DNA of 64,000 bases from a virus (lineage: Duplodnaviria; Heunggongvirae; Uroviricota; Caudoviricetes), in the IMG/VR virus record IMGVR_UViG_3300037466_003757, positions 54,680 to 118,679 of that record; one strand, 5' to 3'. Below, one piece after another: positions 4,864 to 48,345 of the stretch (position 1 is the stretch's first letter; every line of letters begins with the position of its first letter). Under the pieces are notes generated by a model. It made no database searches, was not told the origin of the DNA, and saw nothing but the letters and a program-made list of their open reading frames with translations. A program made the position numbers and the translations under genes.

Positions 4864-5319
4864 ATGACCGACAAGATTTATCTGACTCCCGAACCGCCAC
4901 GTTTCGGTTCACCGTTACTGCCTCCGCCGATGCCTTCATCGAATGCTCCCGAATCGGAACTTTCGGAGAACGAGCCGGAAAGGCGTCGTCAAGAGCGAAC
5001 ACAGGCGATCTCCGAATTCAATTGGCGCGTACGGATCACCGTCGCCGACGATCGTCATCTTCCGGAGGAAGTGATCCGTATCCTCGGTAGCCGTGATTTC
5101 GAGGGATTGGATTGGACGTTGTCCAGTTCACCGATTTGTTTCGGAATGTTTCAGCTCACAGTGACCGACGAATTCCCGACCGTCAAGCATTTTTTGCGCA
5201 CGTTGACGCTCAAAACGGGCGTGATTCGACACAGTCCGCCGTTGACTATCGCAGAAGCAGATATTGCCGCGACCACGCTGATGCTGACCGCAGAACGCGT
5301 CGATCCGAAGGACAAGTGA
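4864..5319 (+). CDS. hypothetical protein
   Basis: 151-aa ORF with an ACA-rich leader. Confidence 0.5.
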   Translation: MTDKIYLTPEPPRFGSPLLPPPMPSSNAPESELSENEPERRRQERTQAISEFNWRVRITVADDRHLPEEVIRILGSRDFEGLDWTLSSSPICFGMFQLTVTDEFPTVKHFLRTLTLKTGVIRHSPPLTIAEADIAATTLMLTAERVDPKDK

Positions 5320-5320
5320 C

Positions 5321-6205
5321 ATGCAACTCGGTGAAAACTGGCAGTGCGAACCCCAGGATAACGTCACCGCGAGCGACGCACGGCATTTCTACGTATTTGC
5401 TGCCGCGTTGGATCTTCTCGAAGAGAAACCGAACCTTCTCGGGGATCAACGTGTCTACGAAGAATGTATGAAGATCCAGGAACTCGTCTGCGGTCTCACT
5501 CCCGACAGAATCATGCAGACCTGGCTGTCGATCATCAATAATCGTGACATCGAATCGCTGGAACAGATCTTCGTGGACGAGAGCGACGAAGCCATGTACA
5601 TGCGAAAACTGTCGCCGCTCGGCGTACTTTTCGACCATGACATCATGTCTGCGTGCAGTCGGCGTGCGATCAATCGCGAAATGATCAAGCACCGGGAGCG
5701 GAAGGAGATTTTCTCGCGCGAACGTGAAAAAGCGGCGGAGATTGCGCGTAAGTTCGATGAGCGGGAAAACGATTATCCGCTCACTCGTACGACTTCGGAG
5801 GATGATATGTCCGATACCGACGACATCCGCGACAGCGCCGACATTCTCGACGACGGCGACGACATTCAATCCGTCGTTCATCCCGCCACACCGTGGATCC
5901 CACCGGTTATTTCCGACCGGACTCGGAAACTGGTCCGGCAGATCCTGAAGTCGGACACCGGTAAGGGTACGTACCGCGCCAGTCTCACCCTGGACGAGCA
6001 TCGTGACTTGATGGATGCCGCGCGGGAACTGAAGCTCGTTCACGGGCACGTCATCGAGACGATCACGTCCTACGATACTTCGGATCCGAACGCGATGTAC
6101 GAGACCAAGGCGATTGCGACGGCGTCCGGTCTCACCGCGTTGCTGATCTACAAGCACGAGATCGCCAAATTCCGCGGTCACATCAAAACGAACGACGCGA
6201 AATGA
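5321..6205 (+). CDS. hypothetical protein
   Basis: 294-aa ORF. Confidence 0.55.
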   Translation: MQLGENWQCEPQDNVTASDARHFYVFAAALDLLEEKPNLLGDQRVYEECMKIQELVCGLTPDRIMQTWLSIINNRDIESLEQIFVDESDEAMYMRKLSPLGVLFDHDIMSACSRRAINREMIKHRERKEIFSREREKAAEIARKFDERENDYPLTRTTSEDDMSDTDDIRDSADILDDGDDIQSVVHPATPWIPPVISDRTRKLVRQILKSDTGKGTYRASLTLDEHRDLMDAARELKLVHGHVIETITSYDTSDPNAMYETKAIATASGLTALLIYKHEIAKFRGHIKTNDAK

Positions 6206-30681: not shown

Positions 30682-31437
30682 CTACCTGAATCCGCCGTTG
30701 AATCCCGCCCTACGAACCGTGGAGAGCCAGTATTTGGCGAAATTCCCGTCCGGCTCTTCGGGAAGAACGGTGGGACTGTCGAATACGGACTCATATTCGC
30801 CGACCGCGTCGAACAATTTCTTGTTCGTGGTGTCTCGAGCGCACGCCTCGCCGAATGCATGATACGCGTCGGGATCGGACACGCGAACGCTCATGTCACC
30901 GGTCGTCCAAAGACTCTTACCACATTCCATGAGACGTAGTATATGCTTGGCATGCTTCGCCCGTCGGCGATCGTTCGGGTCAGTGTGACGATCGGTTACG
31001 AGACGAACCTGCTGGTTCATGAATCCCAGATACGAGTTACGAACCGACGGTGCGCTGAGAAACGATTGACGTTCCTGAACCAGCATGTCGCCGAGACCGG
31101 TGACAAACGATCGGTCATCGTCCGCTGCCCACAGTACTTCCAGCATCGTGGGATTACACTTCAGCGCCAGCCGGCAAAACTTGCCCGCCTCGTGAAAGGC
31201 GAAGTCTTCGTGTTCGCCGTGCTCGCTCCATGTCTGATCACGTTCGCTGGGTGGAAACAGCCCGTCCAATACTCCGGGCGGTTCGGCGAATACGCCGTGC
31301 CAGTCCATGTCCGACTCCGGCGTATTCGTTCCGTACGCGTGGGAGCCGCAGAGGACCTGCAAGAGCATTTGACTATCGCGGGGTCGTGCGCTCCTCATTG
31401 TCCTTGTCCTTTCAGTCTTTCGGATCGCGTAGGTCAA
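30682..31437 (-). CDS. nucleotidyltransferase (pol-beta superfamily, ANT/minimal-NTase-like)
   Basis: LCGSHAYGTNTPESDMDWHGVF matches the GS...SDxD NTase signature. Confidence 0.6.
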   Translation of the reverse strand: MTYAIRKTERTRTMRSARPRDSQMLLQVLCGSHAYGTNTPESDMDWHGVFAEPPGVLDGLFPPSERDQTWSEHGEHEDFAFHEAGKFCRLALKCNPTMLEVLWAADDDRSFVTGLGDMLVQERQSFLSAPSVRNSYLGFMNQQVRLVTDRHTDPNDRRRAKHAKHILRLMECGKSLWTTGDMSVRVSDPDAYHAFGEACARDTTNKKLFDAVGEYESVFDSPTVLPEEPDGNFAKYWLSTVRRAGFNGGFR

Positions 31438-31520: not shown

Positions 31521-32441
31521 CTACCGAGGACCGACAATGACCGGAGAACCGGCCGGAACGGGTACAACACCGCTGATTTTGCCGTCTTTGATCGCCTGAA
31601 GAAGCACGTATGCATTGACGTCGCCACCGAGTGCTGCGATCAACGGTCGGATACCGTCCGCCTCGGACAGAATCTGCGCGTTTCGCTGCAGCTGCGCCGC
31701 GTTGTCGGCTTGAGCGCGTGCGAATGCCTCAACGGATTTACGCAGATCGTCCGGAATACCCGGCTTCTGCAGAACGGTTCCACTGATAGTGAAGTAACTG
31801 TCACCCATCGCCTGGTCGACCAGACCTTTGACCGCGGGGATTTTGCCGTCAGGAGAAGCAGGCGTGCCCTTGAGCAGGGTCTCCACTTCGGCGGACCACT
31901 TGTTCATGGCGTCACCGTTATTGGTGTACAGATCGGTCCACTTGTACTTCTGCGTAGCCTGCGTGACAGCCAGCTTGATTGCGTGCGCCAAATACGTCTG
32001 GAGCAGCTTCTCCCAATCCTTACCGTTATCGAACTTGATACCGATCTGCTCGTGGAACTTCTGCAGTTTCTTGCAATCGGACGTCAACTCGAACTGAACC
32101 TGGCCGCTCACCGCCAATTGAACTTGATCCGACGACGGAGCGAGCAATGCGGACGTATCGCCGATCAGATCACCGTCCGGCTTGTTGTCCTTTCGTTCGT
32201 CCGAGAAAACATACGTTCGCTGACCGGCGGGATAGATGGATGCGTTCTTGGTCACCGACTCCACTTTACGAGTGGATGGATCCACGCAATTGGAGAACGT
32301 TTTGGACGTCGCCATACCACCGCTGTAAACCACTGCTCGCTCGTCCGGCGCGGTACTCACCACCGTACAACCGGTGACCGCGACCGTCACACCCACAGCA
32401 GCGATTGCGGCGAAACCGCCACGCTGAATCTTGTTGTTCAC
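31521..32441 (-). CDS. lipoprotein
   Basis: Signal peptide with lipobox VTGC. Confidence 0.55.
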   Translation of the reverse strand: MNNKIQRGGFAAIAAVGVTVAVTGCTVVSTAPDERAVVYSGGMATSKTFSNCVDPSTRKVESVTKNASIYPAGQRTYVFSDERKDNKPDGDLIGDTSALLAPSSDQVQLAVSGQVQFELTSDCKKLQKFHEQIGIKFDNGKDWEKLLQTYLAHAIKLAVTQATQKYKWTDLYTNNGDAMNKWSAEVETLLKGTPASPDGKIPAVKGLVDQAMGDSYFTISGTVLQKPGIPDDLRKSVEAFARAQADNAAQLQRNAQILSEADGIRPLIAALGGDVNAYVLLQAIKDGKISGVVPVPAGSPVIVGPR

Positions 32442-32705: not shown

Positions 32706-34367
32706 TCAGATACGACCGAGTGCGAAGTCGGCCATCAACTGGGGTGTCGCCGTATCGAAACCGGCGACGTTCAACGAACCCGGATCCTTCGGATCCGCGA
32801 TCGTCCAGTCGGTTGCGGTCATTCCCACAACGATCAATCGTGCATTCGGATTGATCTTGTTGCGGTACATTTCGAGTGCCTTGTGTGGATGAACGTCACC
32901 CGCCCAGTTTTCGCTGTCCGTATAGATCGTGAAAACGTCGATCTTCGTCTTGGTCTCCAACGCCCACCGCATCGGCAACGCGCAGTCGGTTCCACCCGCA
33001 CGTGTACGACCGACGACACTAATGGCGTCCGTCAGTCGCTGATGCGGCGAAATACCCAACGGAGCGATGCCCCAGTCACTGTAATAGCTACGTCGCGACG
33101 ACTTAGTACTCGGAGTCCAGGTGTGACCCGCAAGACCAGACGAGAACGCCGTGATCACGTGCTCCGGTTCGACCTTCGCCGTGACGAGAGCCATGACAGT
33201 TGCCGCGTCACGAGGCGTGATCGACATTTTGGCGATGTTGTCCCAAGTCATCGATCCGGAGACATCGATCGCCAACATGTGCGTCTTGCCGGTGGACTCG
33301 ACCGTATCGAACGATGCGTAGAACGCGGCGTCGAGTGCGTCCACGATCCGTTGAACCGGAGTCCAACGATTCGAGCCCTTCTCGCCGTGACCACGCTCGT
33401 AGACCCTCATCGCGTTGAGAATGGAAAGCGGATGTACGCGCGCCTTCTTCAAACGTTCCGGATCGGTGAGCTGATCGCAGACACGCTGCGTCCATTCGGC
33501 ACCGACCTGCGCAACGAGACCGACGTTCGTCAACGTGGGCAGATTACGCAAGAGCGCAGTCTGTGGCATACCCGATTCGAGCAATGCCTCCCATACGTCC
33601 GGACGCTTCAACGCATCGGTGGGTACCATTTCGCGAACGAGACGATACTCACGAACTATTTGCGCCACCTCGCTGGGCTTCGCCGCACGTGCTTTCTGGA
33701 AACCCTCCACGATACGGATACCGTCGCCCGACCAGTTCGGATCGTAACCCAGTGCCCATCGGAACAAACGACGCTGCTGCTCGTCCTTCGGCTTCGGGTG
33801 ATCGAGCTGGATGATTCGCCGCGGCGTCCAGTCGTTCCGATTGCGATACTTGGTGATTTGATACGCGGTCTTGTTCGTGTCCTCGGTCAGCCACTTCTCG
33901 ATCGCGCGCTTGAACGCCGTACTACCGACACCGCGCATCGCCTTCGAGTAACCCATAAACGTGTACAGCGCCGTAGCGGTACGCGCCACCTGAGGCAGAG
34001 CGGCGAGTGCAGCGCGTCGACCTTCGACATCCGAGGATGCGGCTGCGGCTGCGAGAGCGAACAGAGCGGGTTCCTGCTTCGCCGCGCGACCGCTGACGGA
34101 CACGTCCACGGCTGCGTTGACGAGCTTGATCGGATTCTTCTCTGCGAGTTCGCGAACGATCTTGACGTTCTCGATCGCCAGATCACGGGCCTTCACATAA
34201 TACGTGCCGCCCTCGACTCCGAGAATCAGGAAACGGTTGAGACGCGCGTCCTCATCGACGGTGAATACGTAACCACCGGCGTTGTTCTTGACCTGGGCAG
34301 GATCCACCTTCTCGGTCGCGGGAACCGTGCGTGTGACCGCTTCGGTGAGTGCGTCGAATGTCGCCAT
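32706..34367 (-). CDS. rsr: Ro60/TROVE-domain ribonucleoprotein with C-terminal vWA domain (Rsr-like)
   Basis: TROVE-like N-terminal two-thirds; C-terminal MIDAS motif AIDVSGSMT; 553 aa. Confidence 0.75.
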   Translation of the reverse strand: MATFDALTEAVTRTVPATEKVDPAQVKNNAGGYVFTVDEDARLNRFLILGVEGGTYYVKARDLAIENVKIVRELAEKNPIKLVNAAVDVSVSGRAAKQEPALFALAAAAASSDVEGRRAALAALPQVARTATALYTFMGYSKAMRGVGSTAFKRAIEKWLTEDTNKTAYQITKYRNRNDWTPRRIIQLDHPKPKDEQQRRLFRWALGYDPNWSGDGIRIVEGFQKARAAKPSEVAQIVREYRLVREMVPTDALKRPDVWEALLESGMPQTALLRNLPTLTNVGLVAQVGAEWTQRVCDQLTDPERLKKARVHPLSILNAMRVYERGHGEKGSNRWTPVQRIVDALDAAFYASFDTVESTGKTHMLAIDVSGSMTWDNIAKMSITPRDAATVMALVTAKVEPEHVITAFSSGLAGHTWTPSTKSSRRSYYSDWGIAPLGISPHQRLTDAISVVGRTRAGGTDCALPMRWALETKTKIDVFTIYTDSENWAGDVHPHKALEMYRNKINPNARLIVVGMTATDWTIADPKDPGSLNVAGFDTATPQLMADFALGRI

Positions 34368-34379
34368 GTCGTGTCTTCT

Positions 34380-35330
34380 TTCGTGGATGGAGTGTGAACG
34401 AGTCTGTTGACGAACGGCTGTTTATTCACTGTGGTGGAGTGGGTTCGATAACCGTACATCGGGAGTTCACACCGACATTCCGTTCGAGACGGGCAGTCGG
34501 AAAAGACGAACGAGTCAGGCGTGTCCGGAATTGACGTCCGGGAGTTACCCGAGAACGTATTGGATTCGAACCAATAATACCAGCGATAACCGGAACACAA
34601 AGAGTTCGTTTTATCCCACTGTCCGTTTCAGAATGGGAGACGTAGAAAGTAGACGATATCGAACGAAAACGCATGCCAATCGGGTTTGTGTGCTCCCAAT
34701 AGCGATAACCGACTAACAAATGAGTTCGATATCGACTGCCTCCTACGTCCATAAATCGAACGTTTATCGTGTGATCGGGAGAGCCGAACGAATCGGGCGC
34801 TGCTCGGATCTGGTGTCTGATGCTCTGCCAATTGGAGCTACCGACTTGCGTCGGACGGGACTCGAACCCGTAACCATCGGATTTGATTCGATAACCGAAC
34901 AACAAAGAGTTCGACTCTCCGAATCACACGATAAGGGAGGCGGGACGCGAAAGAGGAGCAACGCCGAACGAAACGGGTGCATTGTCGGGGTTTAGAGCTT
35001 TACCAATTAAGCTACCGCCCCATGAGCGGAGCGGACCGGACTCGAACCGGTATCCCTCGTTTTCTAGACGATAACCGACTTCGCGGGGAGTTCGGCGCTG
35101 CTCGTCTTCAACGTCCCTTATTCAATTGTCAACGTACGTAATAAGGATGGGGATTCGAACGAATCGATGATAACCGATGAATTGTATTAGCAGTACGATA
35201 ACCGGAAATCGGGAGTTCGAATCCCTCTAGCCCTTACCCATCTAGTTCGTTCTAACGCCTTTGCGATCCTGGAGGAGCGTTTTTTGGCGTTTCGATCGAA
35301 CGAGATTTATCGTATCACGCTTCAGTCGAA
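34380..35330. repeat. array of tRNA-like repeat units (CGATAACCG ... GAGTTCGA) and tRNA half-like fragments
   Basis: Six or more units with GATAACCG followed 8-12 nt later by a GAGTTCGA-type T-loop; canonical 5'-half and 3'-half tRNA sequences in non-canonical order. Confidence 0.5.
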
Positions 35331-35378
35331 AAGCGAAATCTTTTTTCTGAAGTTCTATTGTTCGACGTAGAAGCGTTT

Positions 35379-35783
35379 TTACAAACCGAGTGAGGCCTTC
35401 CATGCCTCATCGGAACCTTTGAACCAGACGGGTGCATCTTCGAAATCGTTGAAGTCGGGATTGTCCGCGACAGATACGTCCTCCACGAATTCGATCAATC
35501 GTGCCGCGATATCCGGATGACTAACAGACATCAATTTGGCGAAGTGATGCACGCCGGTTGCTGTACGCGTCCCTGCCTGACTCAACACATCGAGTGACTC
35601 GATCCACGTCAGAAGCTTCTCCGCCGTCGAAAGCGGAAGAACGACACGCTGATTATCGGCACCCTTGCTTTCACGATCCTTCGCCTGGTCGATTTCTTCG
35701 CGCAAACGTCTCGTCGCACGAAATCCATTGAGTACGGTCGGACCGTCGGGATGAATGTTAGTCATTGTCCTTGTCCTTGTCAT
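35379..35783 (-). CDS. hypothetical protein
   Basis: 134 aa. Confidence 0.45.
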   Translation of the reverse strand: MTRTRTMTNIHPDGPTVLNGFRATRRLREEIDQAKDRESKGADNQRVVLPLSTAEKLLTWIESLDVLSQAGTRTATGVHHFAKLMSVSHPDIAARLIEFVEDVSVADNPDFNDFEDAPVWFKGSDEAWKASLGL

Positions 35784-44374: not shown

Positions 44375-44781
44375 AGGGTCCCCGACCGCGTAGCCTACGG
44401 CCGGGGCGCTTCAATGAGTACGGTATAACGCACGACGATAGCATTTAACTCGGGAGATGAATCTAATACCATGATGTTCTGCCATTGAACTACCGGACCA
44501 TGATAGCGGTCCGGACGGGACTCGAACCCGTACGTATATGGTGTCGTCTCCGTCGGTCGATCCGTCGTGCACCGACAGGTTGCTGAGACTAGAGCAATAA
44601 CCTGAGCCTGATACGGCCCGTCTGCCTCTACCGAGTTGGGCTACCCTCGCATGGAGTGCGAAGGGCAGGATTCGAACCTGCACTGGGACGGGATACGTGT
44701 GAGCTTGAGTTTAATTCTCAGTCTCTGCCCCAACATCGTGGGGCAATCCGGGTGCTCTACGCCCGGAAATCTATGAGTCGA
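44375..44781 (-). ncRNA. cluster of degenerate tRNA-like fragments (T-arms, D-arm-like 5' halves, palindromic GGTCCGGACC)
   Basis: Two good T-arms (ACGGG-TTCGAGT-CCCGT and GCAGG-TTCGAAT-CCTGC) and a GGTCCGG-TA-GTTC-AATGGCA-GAAC 5'-half, but no acceptor pairing in any canonical order. Confidence 0.35.
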
Positions 44782-45591
44782 TTACTCGACTGTTGCGTCC
44801 TTCGCCGCATTGATCGGAGCGAACATATAGTCGAGCAGTGGCTGTGCGACCTGGTAGTCGTTTACCTCTACGTTGTTCGCTTCCTCGCGGGCGAATTTCA
44901 CCGCGTTACGTAGCTTTTCGATCCGTTCGGCAGTCTCGGCGACCGTGTCGTACGGAAGACCACCGGACAAGTTGATCTGCGACCACGTACCCTGAACGAC
45001 GTCCTCGTGAATCAACTGCACCTGAGCCGGATGCTTGTCCGTCGCCGGCGACAATTGGAACGATTTGGGCTCCTTCTTGGTCTTGAACGTCTCGACCTTG
45101 TCGGAAATCCAAACGCCCTTGGCAGCGTCGTACGTCCACGACTGTTCCGGATCGAGAACCGGGAAGTTGGAAATGAACGTAGCGAGATCGGTCAACTGTT
45201 TCTCGAGAAACAGCATGTATGTGACCGGTACGTCCGTCGCCAACGTCTGACCGTCCACGACGATGTCGGCTTTCGCGCCAGCGTTCGCTACCTCGTGGGT
45301 GAAAACAAGGTCGAACAACCGGGTGAGGAGCTTCGTGACCTCGTCCATGACGACCGCGGAACGAACCTGCACGAGCTGCGATTCGTTCGGGAAAACGTCG
45401 CCGTCCTCGGTCTTCGGCTTGTACGTCCGAATCCGACCCTTCCAGAGACCGTCCTTACTGAGGGTCCGGTAGAGTTCGGTCCATCGCGTGGTCGTCTTGT
45501 GCTTGACACCCTTCTCGACCGACACGATCTGATTCAGTTTTGTCAAGGTTTTTCCTGTCTTGTCTGATTTTCGTATCTCATATTCGCCCAT
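44782..45591 (-). CDS. hypothetical protein
   Basis: 269 aa. Confidence 0.55.
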   Translation of the reverse strand: MGEYEIRKSDKTGKTLTKLNQIVSVEKGVKHKTTTRWTELYRTLSKDGLWKGRIRTYKPKTEDGDVFPNESQLVQVRSAVVMDEVTKLLTRLFDLVFTHEVANAGAKADIVVDGQTLATDVPVTYMLFLEKQLTDLATFISNFPVLDPEQSWTYDAAKGVWISDKVETFKTKKEPKSFQLSPATDKHPAQVQLIHEDVVQGTWSQINLSGGLPYDTVAETAERIEKLRNAVKFAREEANNVEVNDYQVAQPLLDYMFAPINAAKDATVE

Positions 45592-48273: not shown

Positions 48274-48345
48274 GCGCTTCGAAGGGACTCGAACCCCTAT
48301 TTTCCGTTTAATAAACGGATGTTCTTCCCGTTGAACTACGAAGTT
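48274..48345 (-). tRNA. tRNA-like, anticodon ATT? (possible pseudogene)
   Basis: Good D-arm, anticodon arm and T-arm, but two acceptor mismatches and A34. Confidence 0.3.

What the first reader, a model, noticed from the sequence alone, without database searches (positions are those of the whole stretch)
34380..35330. Array of tRNA-like repeat units immediately upstream of the Ro60 (TROVE) gene: candidate Y-RNA-like / tRNA-mimic RNAs
At least six units share the architecture CGATAACCG, then 8-12 nt, then GAGTTCGA(A/C/T). Several have perfect T-arm-like hairpins, for example GGGAGTTCGAATCCC at 35206. Between them sit canonical-looking tRNA 5' halves (GGGGCGG-TA-GCTT-AATTGGTA-AAGC; GTCGG-TA-GCTCC-AATTGGCA-GAGC) and 3' halves (ACCGG-TTCGAGT-CCGGT-CCGCTCC; ACGGG-TTCGAGT-CCCGT-CCGACGC). 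No complete cloverleaf can be assembled in the normal order. In one case the 3' half directly precedes a 5' half whose acceptor strands are complementary (GGGGCGG/CCGCTCC with G3-U70). The array begins 13 nt from the start codon of the Ro60/TROVE-vWA gene. In bacteria, Ro60 orthologs are known to bind tRNA-like Y RNAs (YrlA) encoded next to rsr. This array could therefore encode phage Y-RNA-like partners of the phage Ro protein. Alternatively it could be a family of tRNA-mimic decoys, or degenerate or permuted tRNAs. I could not match it to any family I know.
Basis: partly seen in the sequence, partly recalled or inferred. Interest (0 to 1): 0.85.

Follow-up and report, generated by a model that had tools for sequence, protein, structure and literature searches.

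The report
Six Y RNA genes before phage Ro60
The repeats are a tightly packed row of six small non-coding "Y RNA" genes, two of them carrying a tRNA look-alike domain, that sit on the same strand just upstream of the phage's Ro60 gene. This is a known kind of RNA-protein partnership, here in an unusually large and divergent version.

Summary
The motif pair occurs six times in 64 kb, with none expected by chance. It must be read on the minus strand, which also carries Ro60 and all 42 tRNAs. Each unit reads: long terminal helix ending in CGAAC, then UC, a second helix ending in CGG, UUAUCG, a variable apical module, and UCGUUCG closing the terminal helix.

Units B and C carry a T arm, acceptor-like stem and D arm in permuted order, which is the YrlA architecture. 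A covariance model built only from Y RNAs of other phages and Nocardia finds B at 94.4 bits, C at 65.6 and E at 21.1. A second such model ranks the short units A, F and D first. Partner-swap tests support both helices, and an 18-sequence alignment shows compensatory pairs.

Related uncultured phages carry 4-5 such units before Ro. ET08 has 3, BearBQ 2 and Nocardia 2. The class is already known (Chen 2014; Thermus phage phiLo 2025), so this is a new, divergent, unusually large member.

Side finding: two further permuted tRNA-like RNAs at 44.4-44.7 kb follow a DUF7873 gene. That pairing recurs in 9 of 9 loci checked, including a phage without Ro.

The parts
35309..35338 (-). Candidate promoter of the array-Ro operon. 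The -35 is TTTCGC (35338-35333), followed by an 18-nt spacer. The extended -10 is TG (35317-35316) plus TACGAT (35314-35309).
   Evidence: The block AAAA-GTTTxx...N...TGATAYxxT is conserved at the head of the Ro-upstream gap in L128, L132, GMA2 and Mareelih, and TGATA..T is invariant. The generic sigma-70 scan did not pick it up. This is inferred, not shown.
35239..35308 (-). Leader hairpin containing the same GUUCG/CGAAC duplex in flipped order (UCGUUCG on the 5' side, ACGAAC on the 3' side). It lacks the CGGUUAUCG motif.
   Evidence: MFE -23.0 kcal/mol, z=-3.99, 0 of 200 shuffles fold as well. Function unknown. It is not counted as a unit.
35138..35238 (-). Unit A: short Y RNA (YrlB-like) with no tRNA-like module. 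The terminal helix is GGGAUUCGAAC/GUUCGAAUCCC plus an outer extension. A second, degenerate CGGUUAUCA lies in the apical part.
   Evidence: Motif hit. Fold z=-3.21. Best hit in the whole window of the leave-out short-Y model R3: 18.7 bits, full model.
34942..35117 (-). Unit B: YrlA-type Y RNA. It has a terminal helix of about 26 bp, CGAAC, helix 2, a UUAUCG/V hairpin, a T arm (CCGGUUCGAGUCCGG), an open 7-bp acceptor-like stem (CCGCUCC-GCUCAU-GGGGCGG) and a D arm (GCUUAAUUGGUAAAGC).
   Evidence: Rfam YrlA 34.9 bits, E=1.4e-5, full model. Leave-out model R2 94.4 bits, E=5.7e-29, full model. z=-4.59.
34764..34934 (-). Unit C: YrlA-type Y RNA. It has a 25-bp terminal helix, and its acceptor-like stem is 5 bp closed by a GCAA tetraloop.
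   Evidence: Rfam YrlA 42.4 bits, E=1e-7. R2 65.6 bits, E=1.6e-19, full model. z=-5.98; the MFE fold shows helix 1, helix 2, V, T, acceptor and D.
34636..34750 (-). Unit D: short Y RNA with a terminal helix of about 25 bp (3 G-U pairs in the outer part) and a 10-bp helix 2.
   Evidence: Motif hit. z=-5.87. R3 14.9 bits, third-best hit of a 4-kb unfiltered scan.
34487..34627 (-). Unit E: Y RNA with a T arm only (AUUGGUUCGAAUCCAAU) plus a small hairpin. It has no D arm.
   Evidence: Motif hit. R2 21.1 bits, E=6.4e-5 over the full model. z=-2.63. L131 unit 5 and Nocardia unit 2 have the same T-arm-only design.
34385..34481 (-). Unit F: short Y RNA with UGAAC instead of CGAAC. It ends 17 nt before the Ro start codon.
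   Evidence: Motif hit. R3 16.0 bits, second-best hit in the window. z=-1.83, the weakest unit.
32706..34367 (-). Ro60 (Rsr) gene, 553 aa, the presumed protein partner.
   Evidence: Pfam TROVE 2.9e-40 and vWA_Ro60 1.3e-54. PDB 2NVO Rsr E=4.5e-111 and Xenopus Ro60 1YVP E=6.4e-101.

Best explanation
The region is a polycistronic array of six Y RNA genes, transcribed on the minus strand together with the Ro60 gene that follows them.

Each RNA pairs its 5' and 3' ends into a long helix. The top of that helix carries the conserved Ro-recognition motif: CGAAC on the 5' strand, paired here with GUUCG on the 3' strand. An internal loop follows, then a second helix ending in CGG/CCG, then the actinobacterial Y RNA signature UUAUCG. 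The apical 'effector' module differs between units:
- a full tRNA-like domain in B and C (YrlA type);
- a T arm only in E;
- a small variable hairpin in A, D and F (YrlB type).

Inferred mechanism, by analogy with Deinococcus, Salmonella, M. smegmatis and Thermus phage phiLo:
- The precursor is cut between the stems.
- Phage Ro60 binds the CGAA helix of each RNA.
- The apical modules gate Ro's cavity and/or tether it to other factors, such as host PNPase, during infection.

Shown here: the motifs, the helices with compensatory support, homology to Ro-linked Y RNAs, and co-orientation and synteny with Ro. Inferred: transcription, processing, Ro binding and function.
For: 1. Six motif pairs, 0 expected by chance.
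2. Helix 1: consecutive pairs outward from GAAC/GUUC sum to 39 for true partners. Across 265 partner swaps the mean is 7.8 and the maximum 12, although the flanks differ between units.
3. Helix 2: duplex energy is -65.8 for true partners against a best swap of -59.1.
4. Folding z-scores run from -1.8 to -6.0, and four units are below -3.
5. Rfam YrlA hits C and B. These scores fall in the same range as the published phage ET08 YrlA (37.4 bits), Mareelih (52.1) and GMA2 (43.1), all of which are also below the gathering score.
6. Leave-out model R2, built with no window sequence, gives B 94.4, C 65.6 and E 21.1 bits, each over the full model. tRNA-tRNA junction artefacts score 28.7 or less.
7. 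Leave-out short-unit model R3: its only two hits in 64 kb are A and F. The top three in an unfiltered 4-kb scan are A, F and D.
8. On an 18-sequence MAFFT alignment that includes B and C, 92.4% of cells are paired, against 73.5% when shuffled and 32-49% when slid. 19 of 27 pairs show compensatory change.
9. The same gap before Ro holds 4 units in L128, L129 and L132, 5 in L131, and 3 in L133 and ET08. BearBQ, Phabba and Nocardia hold 2. All carry GGUUAYC.
10. The neighbour is a genuine Ro60.
11. ORFs overlapping the array match no Pfam or PHROG family.
12. Literature: YrlA lies next to Ro in 254 bacteria and 22 phages (PMC4201824). phiLo Ro60 binds two upstream CGAA-motif Y-like RNAs and host PNPase (PMC12135203).
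Against: - There are no expression data, and no close relative of this phage. The nearest Ro is 51-52% identical, and blastn against phages finds nothing. Support for the short units therefore rests on paralogue comparison and weak model scores (14.9-18.7 bits, E 0.005-0.3).
- Both Rfam YrlA hits are below the gathering score of 69.
- The published motif GNCGAAN0-1G is only partly met. CGAA is present in 5 of 6 units, G at -2 in 2 of 6, and the trailing G in none.
- Folding energy does not tell the strands apart: -326.5 (minus) against -334.4 (plus).
- The promoter is inferred from conservation only, and the consensus scan missed it.
- Unit F is weak (z=-1.83, UGAAC).
Confidence: 0.85

Rival explanations
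1. The stem-loops are cis-acting elements of the Ro60 mRNA leader rather than stable RNAs. Ro60 would bind its own 5' UTR to autoregulate translation or stability. The last unit ends 17 nt from the start codon, next to the ribosome-binding site.
For: The array and Ro share a strand with no convincing terminator between them. Terminator-like sites are not above shuffle expectation. Unit F abuts the Ro start. This reading is not exclusive of the main explanation.
Against: Homologous units in other phages lie far from Ro or downstream of it, for example the Mareelih YrlA 1.1 kb downstream among tRNAs, and those of GMA2 and Sham. In M. smegmatis and phiLo such RNAs are stable and Ro-bound (PMC4201824, PMC12135203). 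Full tRNA-like modules with conserved T and D loops are hard to explain as leader structure.
Confidence: 0.08
2. The array consists of tRNA-mimic decoys that act independently of Ro, for example by soaking up host tRNA-directed defence enzymes. Their position next to Ro would be incidental.
For: The phage invests heavily in tRNA biology: 42 tRNAs and a RlaP RNA-repair nucleotidyltransferase two genes after Ro. A second set of permuted tRNA-like RNAs in the window is linked to DUF7873, not Ro.
Against: Only 2 of 6 units carry a full tRNA-like domain. All six share the CGAA-type helix that defines Ro binding sites. The linkage to Ro is conserved across every Ro locus examined. No unit has an anticodon loop.
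Confidence: 0.04
3. The region holds decayed or rearranged tRNA genes (pseudogenes, or true circularly permuted tRNA genes that are re-joined into functional tRNAs).
For: Units B and C have canonical T loops, D loops and U8-A9. Rfam's tRNA model reaches 27.5 bits, but only by bridging B's 5' half to C's 3' half across 119 nt.
Against: There is no anticodon stem-loop anywhere. The helix at that position runs on into helix 2 and helix 1. The permuted order and the closing helices are conserved with compensatory changes in 18 sequences from distant phages and Nocardia. ARAGORN finds nothing. Four units have no tRNA-like domain.
Confidence: 0.02
4. The repeats are DNA-level elements (iterons, operators or other protein-binding sites), not RNA genes.
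For: Short conserved motifs are repeated at 120-185-bp intervals in a non-coding gap.
Against: The sequences flanking the motifs differ between units but are complementary within each unit. This is expected for RNA helices, not for DNA sites. G-U pairs occur in the helices, 2-11 per unit. The units are homologous to YrlA.
Confidence: 0.01

Closest known systems
YrlA (Y RNA-like A; Rfam RF02553; Chen et al. 2014, PMC4201824), including the mycobacteriophage ET08 and M. smegmatis examples
   Same: Encoded next to Ro60 on the same strand. The 5' and 3' ends pair into a stem with a CGAA-type motif on the 5' strand. The apical tRNA-like domain runs T arm, closed acceptor-like stem, D arm. The UCGGUUAYC motif after the Ro site is shared with ET08, BearBQ, Mareelih and Nocardia, and probably with M. 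smegmatis, whose published YrlA-5' probe is complementary to UUACCACUU.... Unit B has a 7-bp open acceptor stem like M. smegmatis YrlA, which is cut by RNase P and CCA-tailed.
   Different: The scores are below Rfam's gathering threshold. The motif reads CGAACUC and is fully paired with a conserved 3' UCGUUCG; in Salmonella and M. smegmatis only the 5' strand is recognisable. The spacer to GGUUAUC is longer (8-12 nt against 5-7). Two YrlA-type RNAs sit in one array.
YrlB and other short bacterial Y RNAs (S. Typhimurium YrlB, M. smegmatis YrlB, D. radiodurans Yrn2)
   Same: Units A, D and F (and E, with a T arm only) are short Ro-site-bearing stem-loops encoded beside a YrlA, as YrlB is. M. smegmatis YrlB also has a T arm.
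   Different: There are four such units here instead of one. They share no sequence with the named YrlBs beyond the Ro-site region.
Thermus phage phiLo Yrl1/Yrl2 with phiRo60 (PMC12135203, 2025)
   Same: Phage-encoded Y-like RNAs with a CGAA motif lie directly upstream of the phage Ro60 gene. That study showed experimentally that they bind the phage Ro60 and host PNPase.
   Different: phiLo has two RNAs, and the paper never mentions a tRNA-like domain. Its Ro is only distantly related (E=1.7e-6 to 9KOP).
Metazoan Y RNAs (RF00019) and D. radiodurans Yrn1
   Same: The stem-loop-stem design is the same, with Ro bound at a conserved helix formed by the RNA ends. The motif is related to GGUCCGA.
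   Different: There is no Rfam Y_RNA hit even at E up to 10. No bulged-C helix is present. The tRNA-like module is in the YrlA orientation, not the Yrn1 orientation.
Circularly permuted tRNA genes (e.g. Cyanidioschyzon merolae; from my own knowledge)
   Same: The 3' half (T arm plus 3' acceptor strand) precedes the 5' half (5' acceptor strand plus D arm).
   Different: No anticodon stem-loop exists to be re-formed. The termini are sealed into a long Ro-binding helix.

Membership tests
YrlA / bacterial-phage Y RNA | Encoded within about 4 kb of a Ro60 (TROVE) gene on the same strand | tested here: met
   All six units are on the minus strand, 17-870 nt upstream of Ro60 at 32706-34367.
YrlA / bacterial-phage Y RNA | 5' and 3' ends pair into a terminal helix that carries the Ro-binding motif | tested here: met
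   Each unit has a terminal helix of 9-26 bp. Complementarity is partner-specific: 39 against a maximum of 12 in 265 swaps.
YrlA / bacterial-phage Y RNA | GNCGAAN0-1G motif near the 5' end | tested here: inconclusive
   CGAA is present in 5 of 6 units (UGAA in F). G at -2 occurs only in B and C. CGAA is followed by CUC, not N0-1G. The sister clade has CGAA(A/U)UG. This is a variant of the motif.
YrlA / bacterial-phage Y RNA | tRNA-like domain in the order T arm, acceptor-like stem-loop, D arm, with conserved T-loop and D-loop residues | tested here: met
   Met for B and C. Partly met for E, which has a T arm only. Absent from A, D and F, which therefore fit the YrlB-type or short Y RNA class rather than YrlA.
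YrlA / bacterial-phage Y RNA | Score at or above Rfam RF02553 gathering threshold (69 bits) | tested here: not met
   The scores are 42.4 and 34.9 bits. In the same test the phage ET08 locus that Chen et al. list as having a YrlA scores 37.4, Mareelih 52.1, GMA2 43.1 and Sham 35.4. The Rfam threshold therefore excludes phage and actinobacterial members in general.
YrlA / bacterial-phage Y RNA | Recognised by a model of Ro-linked Y RNAs from other organisms (leave-out test) | tested here: met
   R2 gives B 94.4, C 65.6 and E 21.1 bits, each over the full model. R3 gives A 18.7, F 16.0 and D 14.9 bits as the top hits.
YrlA / bacterial-phage Y RNA | Physically bound by Ro60; stable small RNA in vivo; tRNA-type modifications | not testable with these tools
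   Needs RIP or EMSA, Northern blots or RNA-seq, and modification mapping.
Canonical tRNA | Cloverleaf in normal order with an anticodon arm | tested here: not met
   ARAGORN finds none in 34380-35330. Rfam tRNA reaches 27.5 bits, below 29, and only by joining parts of two units across 119 nt.
Circularly permuted tRNA gene | Both halves present, including a re-formable anticodon stem-loop | tested here: not met
   The helix at the anticodon-stem position continues into helix 2 and helix 1, and there is no 7-nt anticodon loop.
Metazoan Y RNA (RF00019) | Match to the Rfam Y_RNA model | tested here: not met
   No hit at E up to 10 in 34200-35500.

The most novel reading that the evidence does not exclude
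The six RNAs are not redundant copies. They are a diversified set of Ro60 adaptors, and each apical module directs the phage Ro60, and any host nuclease it recruits, to a different partner or substrate. Unit B, with an open 7-bp acceptor stem and a short linker, would be cut by RNase P and CCA-tailed like M. smegmatis YrlA, yielding a two-piece tRNA mimic with a free acceptor end. Together with the 42 tRNAs, the RlaP repair enzyme and a second, Ro-independent set of permuted tRNA-like RNAs linked to DUF7873 in the same window, this would amount to a phage toolkit for protecting or policing the tRNA pool against host tRNA-directed defences.
Probability: 0.15. Interest if true: 0.65.

Novelty: new member of a known kind. 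Interest (0 to 1): 0.4.

Why it matters
- It adds the largest Ro-linked Y RNA array seen in this comparison: six units, against 2-5 in 13 other loci. The array comes from an uncultured actinophage lineage that current Rfam thresholds miss.
- Phage annotators mis-call these RNAs as ORFs or tRNAs. Mareelih's 'tRNA-Leu(gag)' overlaps its YrlA.
- Three architectural classes coexist in one operon, which makes this a compact system for asking what the apical modules of Y RNAs do.
- The conserved UCGGUUAYC junction and the fully paired CGAAC/GUUCG helix give concrete mutational targets for mapping Ro60 recognition.
- The side observation, DUF7873 followed by permuted tRNA-like RNAs in 9 of 9 loci including bacteria and a Ro-less phage, may point to a second, undescribed protein partner for tRNA-mimic RNAs.

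Tried and rejected
- The viral-contig scan with GAACTC-N8-12-CGGTTATCG returned only single chance hits; loci L003-L122 are useless.
- blastn of the array against 50,697 phage records found no match.
- The search for related loci with Ro in viral contigs found none.
- Strand choice by folding energy was inconclusive: -326.5 (minus) against -334.4 (plus). The strand call rests on the tRNA-like modules, model hits, synteny and the promoter.
- The generic promoter/terminator scan gave nothing above shuffle expectation.
- I considered that the G3:U70 pair in unit B marks alanine identity, as in tmRNA. The pair recurs in L128 unit 3 and L130 unit 2. However, L132 unit 3 has A3-U70, X1 has G3-C70 and X2 has U3-A70, and B's discriminator is G. 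I rejected the idea as unsupported.
- A seventh unit suggested by UCGUUCGA at 35303 turned out to be a leader hairpin without GGUUAUC.
- ORFs over the array match no Pfam or PHROG family.
- The supplementary tables of Chen 2014 and the 2020 Annual Review were not available.

Full report
**Setting.** The window is part of a 172,958-bp JGI metagenome contig. It has phage hallmarks: a large terminase, 42 tRNA genes all on the minus strand and HNH endonucleases. The ORF at 32706-34367 (minus) is a Ro60 orthologue. It has Pfam TROVE (2.9e-40) and vWA_Ro60 (1.3e-54) domains. It matches D. radiodurans Rsr (2NVO) at E=4.5e-111. Its nearest relatives are only 51-52% identical: uncultured contigs and Nocardia. 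The best isolated phage is Gordonia phage BearBQ at 48.7%. The finding lies in the 1-kb gene-free gap between a metallophosphatase operon and Ro.

**The observation.** It occurs six times between 34446 and 35218, with none in 100 shuffles. Each copy is followed 40-110 nt later by UCGUUC(G/A). The quoted tRNA halves are all present on the minus strand. Small corrections are listed under the observation check.

**Anatomy.** Every unit folds the same way:
- A long terminal helix (helix 1) has CGAAC at the top of its 5' strand, paired to GUUCG on the 3' strand.
- A small internal loop follows.
- A second helix of 8-10 bp (helix 2) ends in CGG/CCG.
- The conserved UUAUCG follows, then a variable apical module.

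With their outer stems the units fill the gap almost completely, separated by 5-20 nt:

| Element | Coordinates (minus strand) |
|---|---|
| Leader hairpin | 35308-35239 |
| A | 35238-35138 |
| B | 35117-34942 |
| C | 34934-34764 |
| D | 34750-34636 |
| E | 34627-34487 |
| F | 34481-34385 |

The Ro ATG follows 17 nt after F. Folding z-scores are -3.2, -4.6, -6.0, -5.9, -2.6 and -1.8 for A to F.

Units B and C carry a V hairpin, T arm, acceptor-like stem and D arm in that order. B has an open 7-bp acceptor stem with a GCUCAU linker. C has a 5-bp stem capped by GCAA. E has a T arm only. A, D and F have short variable hairpins.

**Is the structure more than chance?** No close relative exists, so I used the six paralogues as each other's controls.
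- Helix 1: counting consecutive pairs outward from GAAC/GUUC gives 39 for true 5'/3' partners. Across all 265 derangements the mean is 7.8 and the maximum 12. The flanks themselves share only 2-6 of 12 positions between units.
- Helix 2: true partners give -65.8 kcal/mol in total, against -59.1 for the best derangement.
- Folding energy does not discriminate the two strands. The strand call rests on other evidence.

**What family is it?** Rfam's YrlA model hits C (42.4 bits, E=1e-7) and B (34.9 bits, E=1.4e-5, full length) on the minus strand. Both are below the gathering score of 69. Known phage loci do no better in the same test: ET08 37.4, Mareelih 52.1, GMA2 43.1 and Sham 35.4.

Reading the Ro-upstream gaps of other loci showed the same unit design everywhere: a stem, then G(C/G)CGA/CGGA/CGAA, then 5-12 nt, then (U)CGGUUAYC. 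The counts of units were:

| Locus | Units |
|---|---|
| ET08 | 3 |
| BearBQ | 2 |
| Phabba | 2 |
| Mareelih | at least 3 |
| Nocardia | 2 |
| L133 | 3 |
| L131 | 5 |
| L128, L129, L132 (syntenic uncultured relatives) | 4 |
| L130 | contig starts inside the array |

**Covariation and leave-out tests.**
- A MAFFT alignment of 18 tRNA-like Y RNAs, including B and C, gave an RNAalifold consensus of helix 2, T, acceptor and D stems. 15 of 23 pairs were compensatory.
- With the V hairpin added, 92.4% of cells pair. This compares with 73.5% in shuffles (0 of 500 as high) and 32-49% when partners are slid. 19 of 27 pairs show double changes.
- Model R2 was built from the 16 non-window sequences only. 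It finds B at 94.4 bits (E=5.7e-29), C at 65.6 (1.6e-19) and E at 21.1 (6.4e-5), each over the whole model including helix 1. tRNA-tRNA junction artefacts, which Chen et al. warned about, score 28.7 or less.
- Model R3 was built from 12 short units of other phages, where 11 of 15 pairs are compensatory. Its only two hits in the whole window are A and F. It ranks A, F and D first in an unfiltered 4-kb scan, with noise at 8.4 bits or less. These scores are modest, so the short units are the least secure part.

**Expression signals (inferred).** A block with an invariant TGATA..T (extended -10, TG-n-TACGAT) and a weak -35 heads the gap here and in L128, L132, GMA2 and Mareelih. It sits at 35338-35309. 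No convincing terminator separates the array from Ro. I therefore infer one promoter, a structured leader, six Y RNAs and the Ro mRNA on one precursor, released by processing between the long stems.

**Mechanism and comparison with the literature.**
- Chen et al. 2014 (PMC4201824) found YrlA next to Ro in 254 bacteria and 22 phages. [quoted passage not shown] They also showed that M. smegmatis YrlA, which has a 7-bp acceptor stem, is cut by RNase P and CCA-tailed.
- In Thermus phage phiLo, two CGAA-motif Y-like RNAs upstream of the phage Ro60 bind it and host PNPase (PMC12135203).
- Iyer et al. 2021 list TROVE proteins with a tRNA-like partner, and RlaP, among jumbo-phage RNA-repair genes. This window has RlaP two genes after Ro.

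The most likely function is therefore a phage Ro60-Y RNA ribonucleoprotein set. What differs here is:
- the copy number: six;
- three module classes in one operon;
- a CGAACUC variant of the Ro site that is fully paired to a conserved 3' strand;
- divergence beyond Rfam's threshold.

This makes it a new member of a known kind.

**Rivals.** Four alternatives are scored separately: a purely cis-acting Ro mRNA leader, Ro-independent decoys, decayed or permuted tRNAs, and DNA repeats. None explains the unit-specific complementarity, the conserved Ro linkage and the YrlA homology together. The autoregulatory reading may hold in addition to the main one.

**Beyond the finding.** Both structural models also hit two elements in the tRNA cluster, X1 (~44724-44610) and X2 (~44572-44428), both on the minus strand. 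They have the same permuted T-acceptor-D order and open 7-bp acceptor stems. They directly follow a DUF7873 gene at 44782-45591.

The same gene is followed by one or two such elements in all nine loci examined:
- this window;
- Gordonia phages Phendrix and Ziko;
- Arthrobacter phage Mimi;
- a Thermomonosporaceae chromosome;
- a Nocardia chromosome;
- cyanophage Pam2;
- Rhizobium phage RHph_Y65;
- Vibrio phage D470, where the hit is weak.

Further points on this module:
- Ziko's complete genome has no Ro.
- In 11 aligned elements the 7-bp acceptor stem is never broken, and 12 of 15 pairs show compensatory change.
- Rfam has no family for these RNAs, and no paper mentions DUF7873.
- The predicted fold (pLDDT 87) matches nothing informative.

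X1 and X2 are therefore probably not Ro partners. They may mark a separate, undescribed protein-RNA module.

Noticed in passing
window 44428-44724 (minus) and 44782-45591 (minus); also L136, L137, L138, L141, L142, L143, L144, L145: Two permuted tRNA-like RNAs, X1 (~44724-44610) and X2 (~44572-44428), lie directly downstream of a DUF7873 gene inside the tRNA cluster. Each has a T arm, an open 7-bp acceptor stem with a short linker, and a D arm, closed by a long helix. The gene-plus-RNA pairing recurs in 9 of 9 DUF7873 loci checked, covering actinophages, two actinobacterial chromosomes, a cyanophage, a rhizobiophage and a vibriophage (the last hit is weak). Gordonia phage Ziko, one of these, has no Ro gene. 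There is no Rfam family, no paper on DUF7873 and no informative fold match. This is possibly a new protein/tRNA-mimic RNA module.
   Followed up: partly
window 35239-35308 (minus): A leader hairpin between the candidate promoter and unit A contains the same GUUCG/CGAAC duplex as the Y units, but with the strands in the opposite order and without GGUUAUC. It folds well (z=-3.99). A related UCUGUUCGACCGA leader is present in L128 and L132. Its role is unknown; it could be a Ro site, a processing signal or chance.
   Followed up: partly
L002 5221-5375 (Gordonia phage Mareelih); L138 2491-2700 (Ziko gp126); L123 2291-2464 (ET08 gp219): Public phage annotations call tRNAs or small ORFs over these RNAs. 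Mareelih's 'tRNA-Leu(gag)' (5221-5309) overlaps its YrlA (Rfam hit 5261-5360). Ziko gp126 lies over the DUF7873-linked RNAs. ET08 gp219 overlaps Y RNA units 2 and 3.
   Followed up: partly
window 30682-31437 (minus) and 31521-32441 (minus): Downstream of Ro lie an SPFH/Band-7-like gene and a RlaP (RNA-repair-pathway Pol-beta nucleotidyltransferase, Pfam 9.9e-18) gene. L130 also has RlaP after Ro. This suggests a conserved Ro/Y RNA/RlaP RNA-repair neighbourhood in this phage lineage.
   Followed up: no
window 35028-34997 (unit B), L128 unit 3, L130 unit 2, L132 unit 3: Within the sister clade, tRNA-like Y RNAs come in two conserved forms. In one the acceptor stem is capped by a UUCG or GNRA tetraloop. 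In the other it is an open 7-bp stem followed by a discriminator and a CUCAU-type linker. The open form has a G3-U70 wobble in 3 of 4 cases and A3-U70 in the fourth.
   Followed up: partly
window 51159-51234 (minus) and 48274-48345 (minus): ARAGORN reports a tRNA with a 4-base anticodon (gtac) and a tRNA-Asn with the unusual anticodon ATT in the 42-tRNA cluster. Neither was examined.
   Followed up: no
L124 4985-5041 (Gordonia phage GMA2): A Pistol ribozyme hit above Rfam's gathering score (56.8 bits against 34.5) lies between a tRNA-Trp and a tRNA-Gln in GMA2's tRNA cluster, near its YrlA and tmRNA.
   Followed up: no
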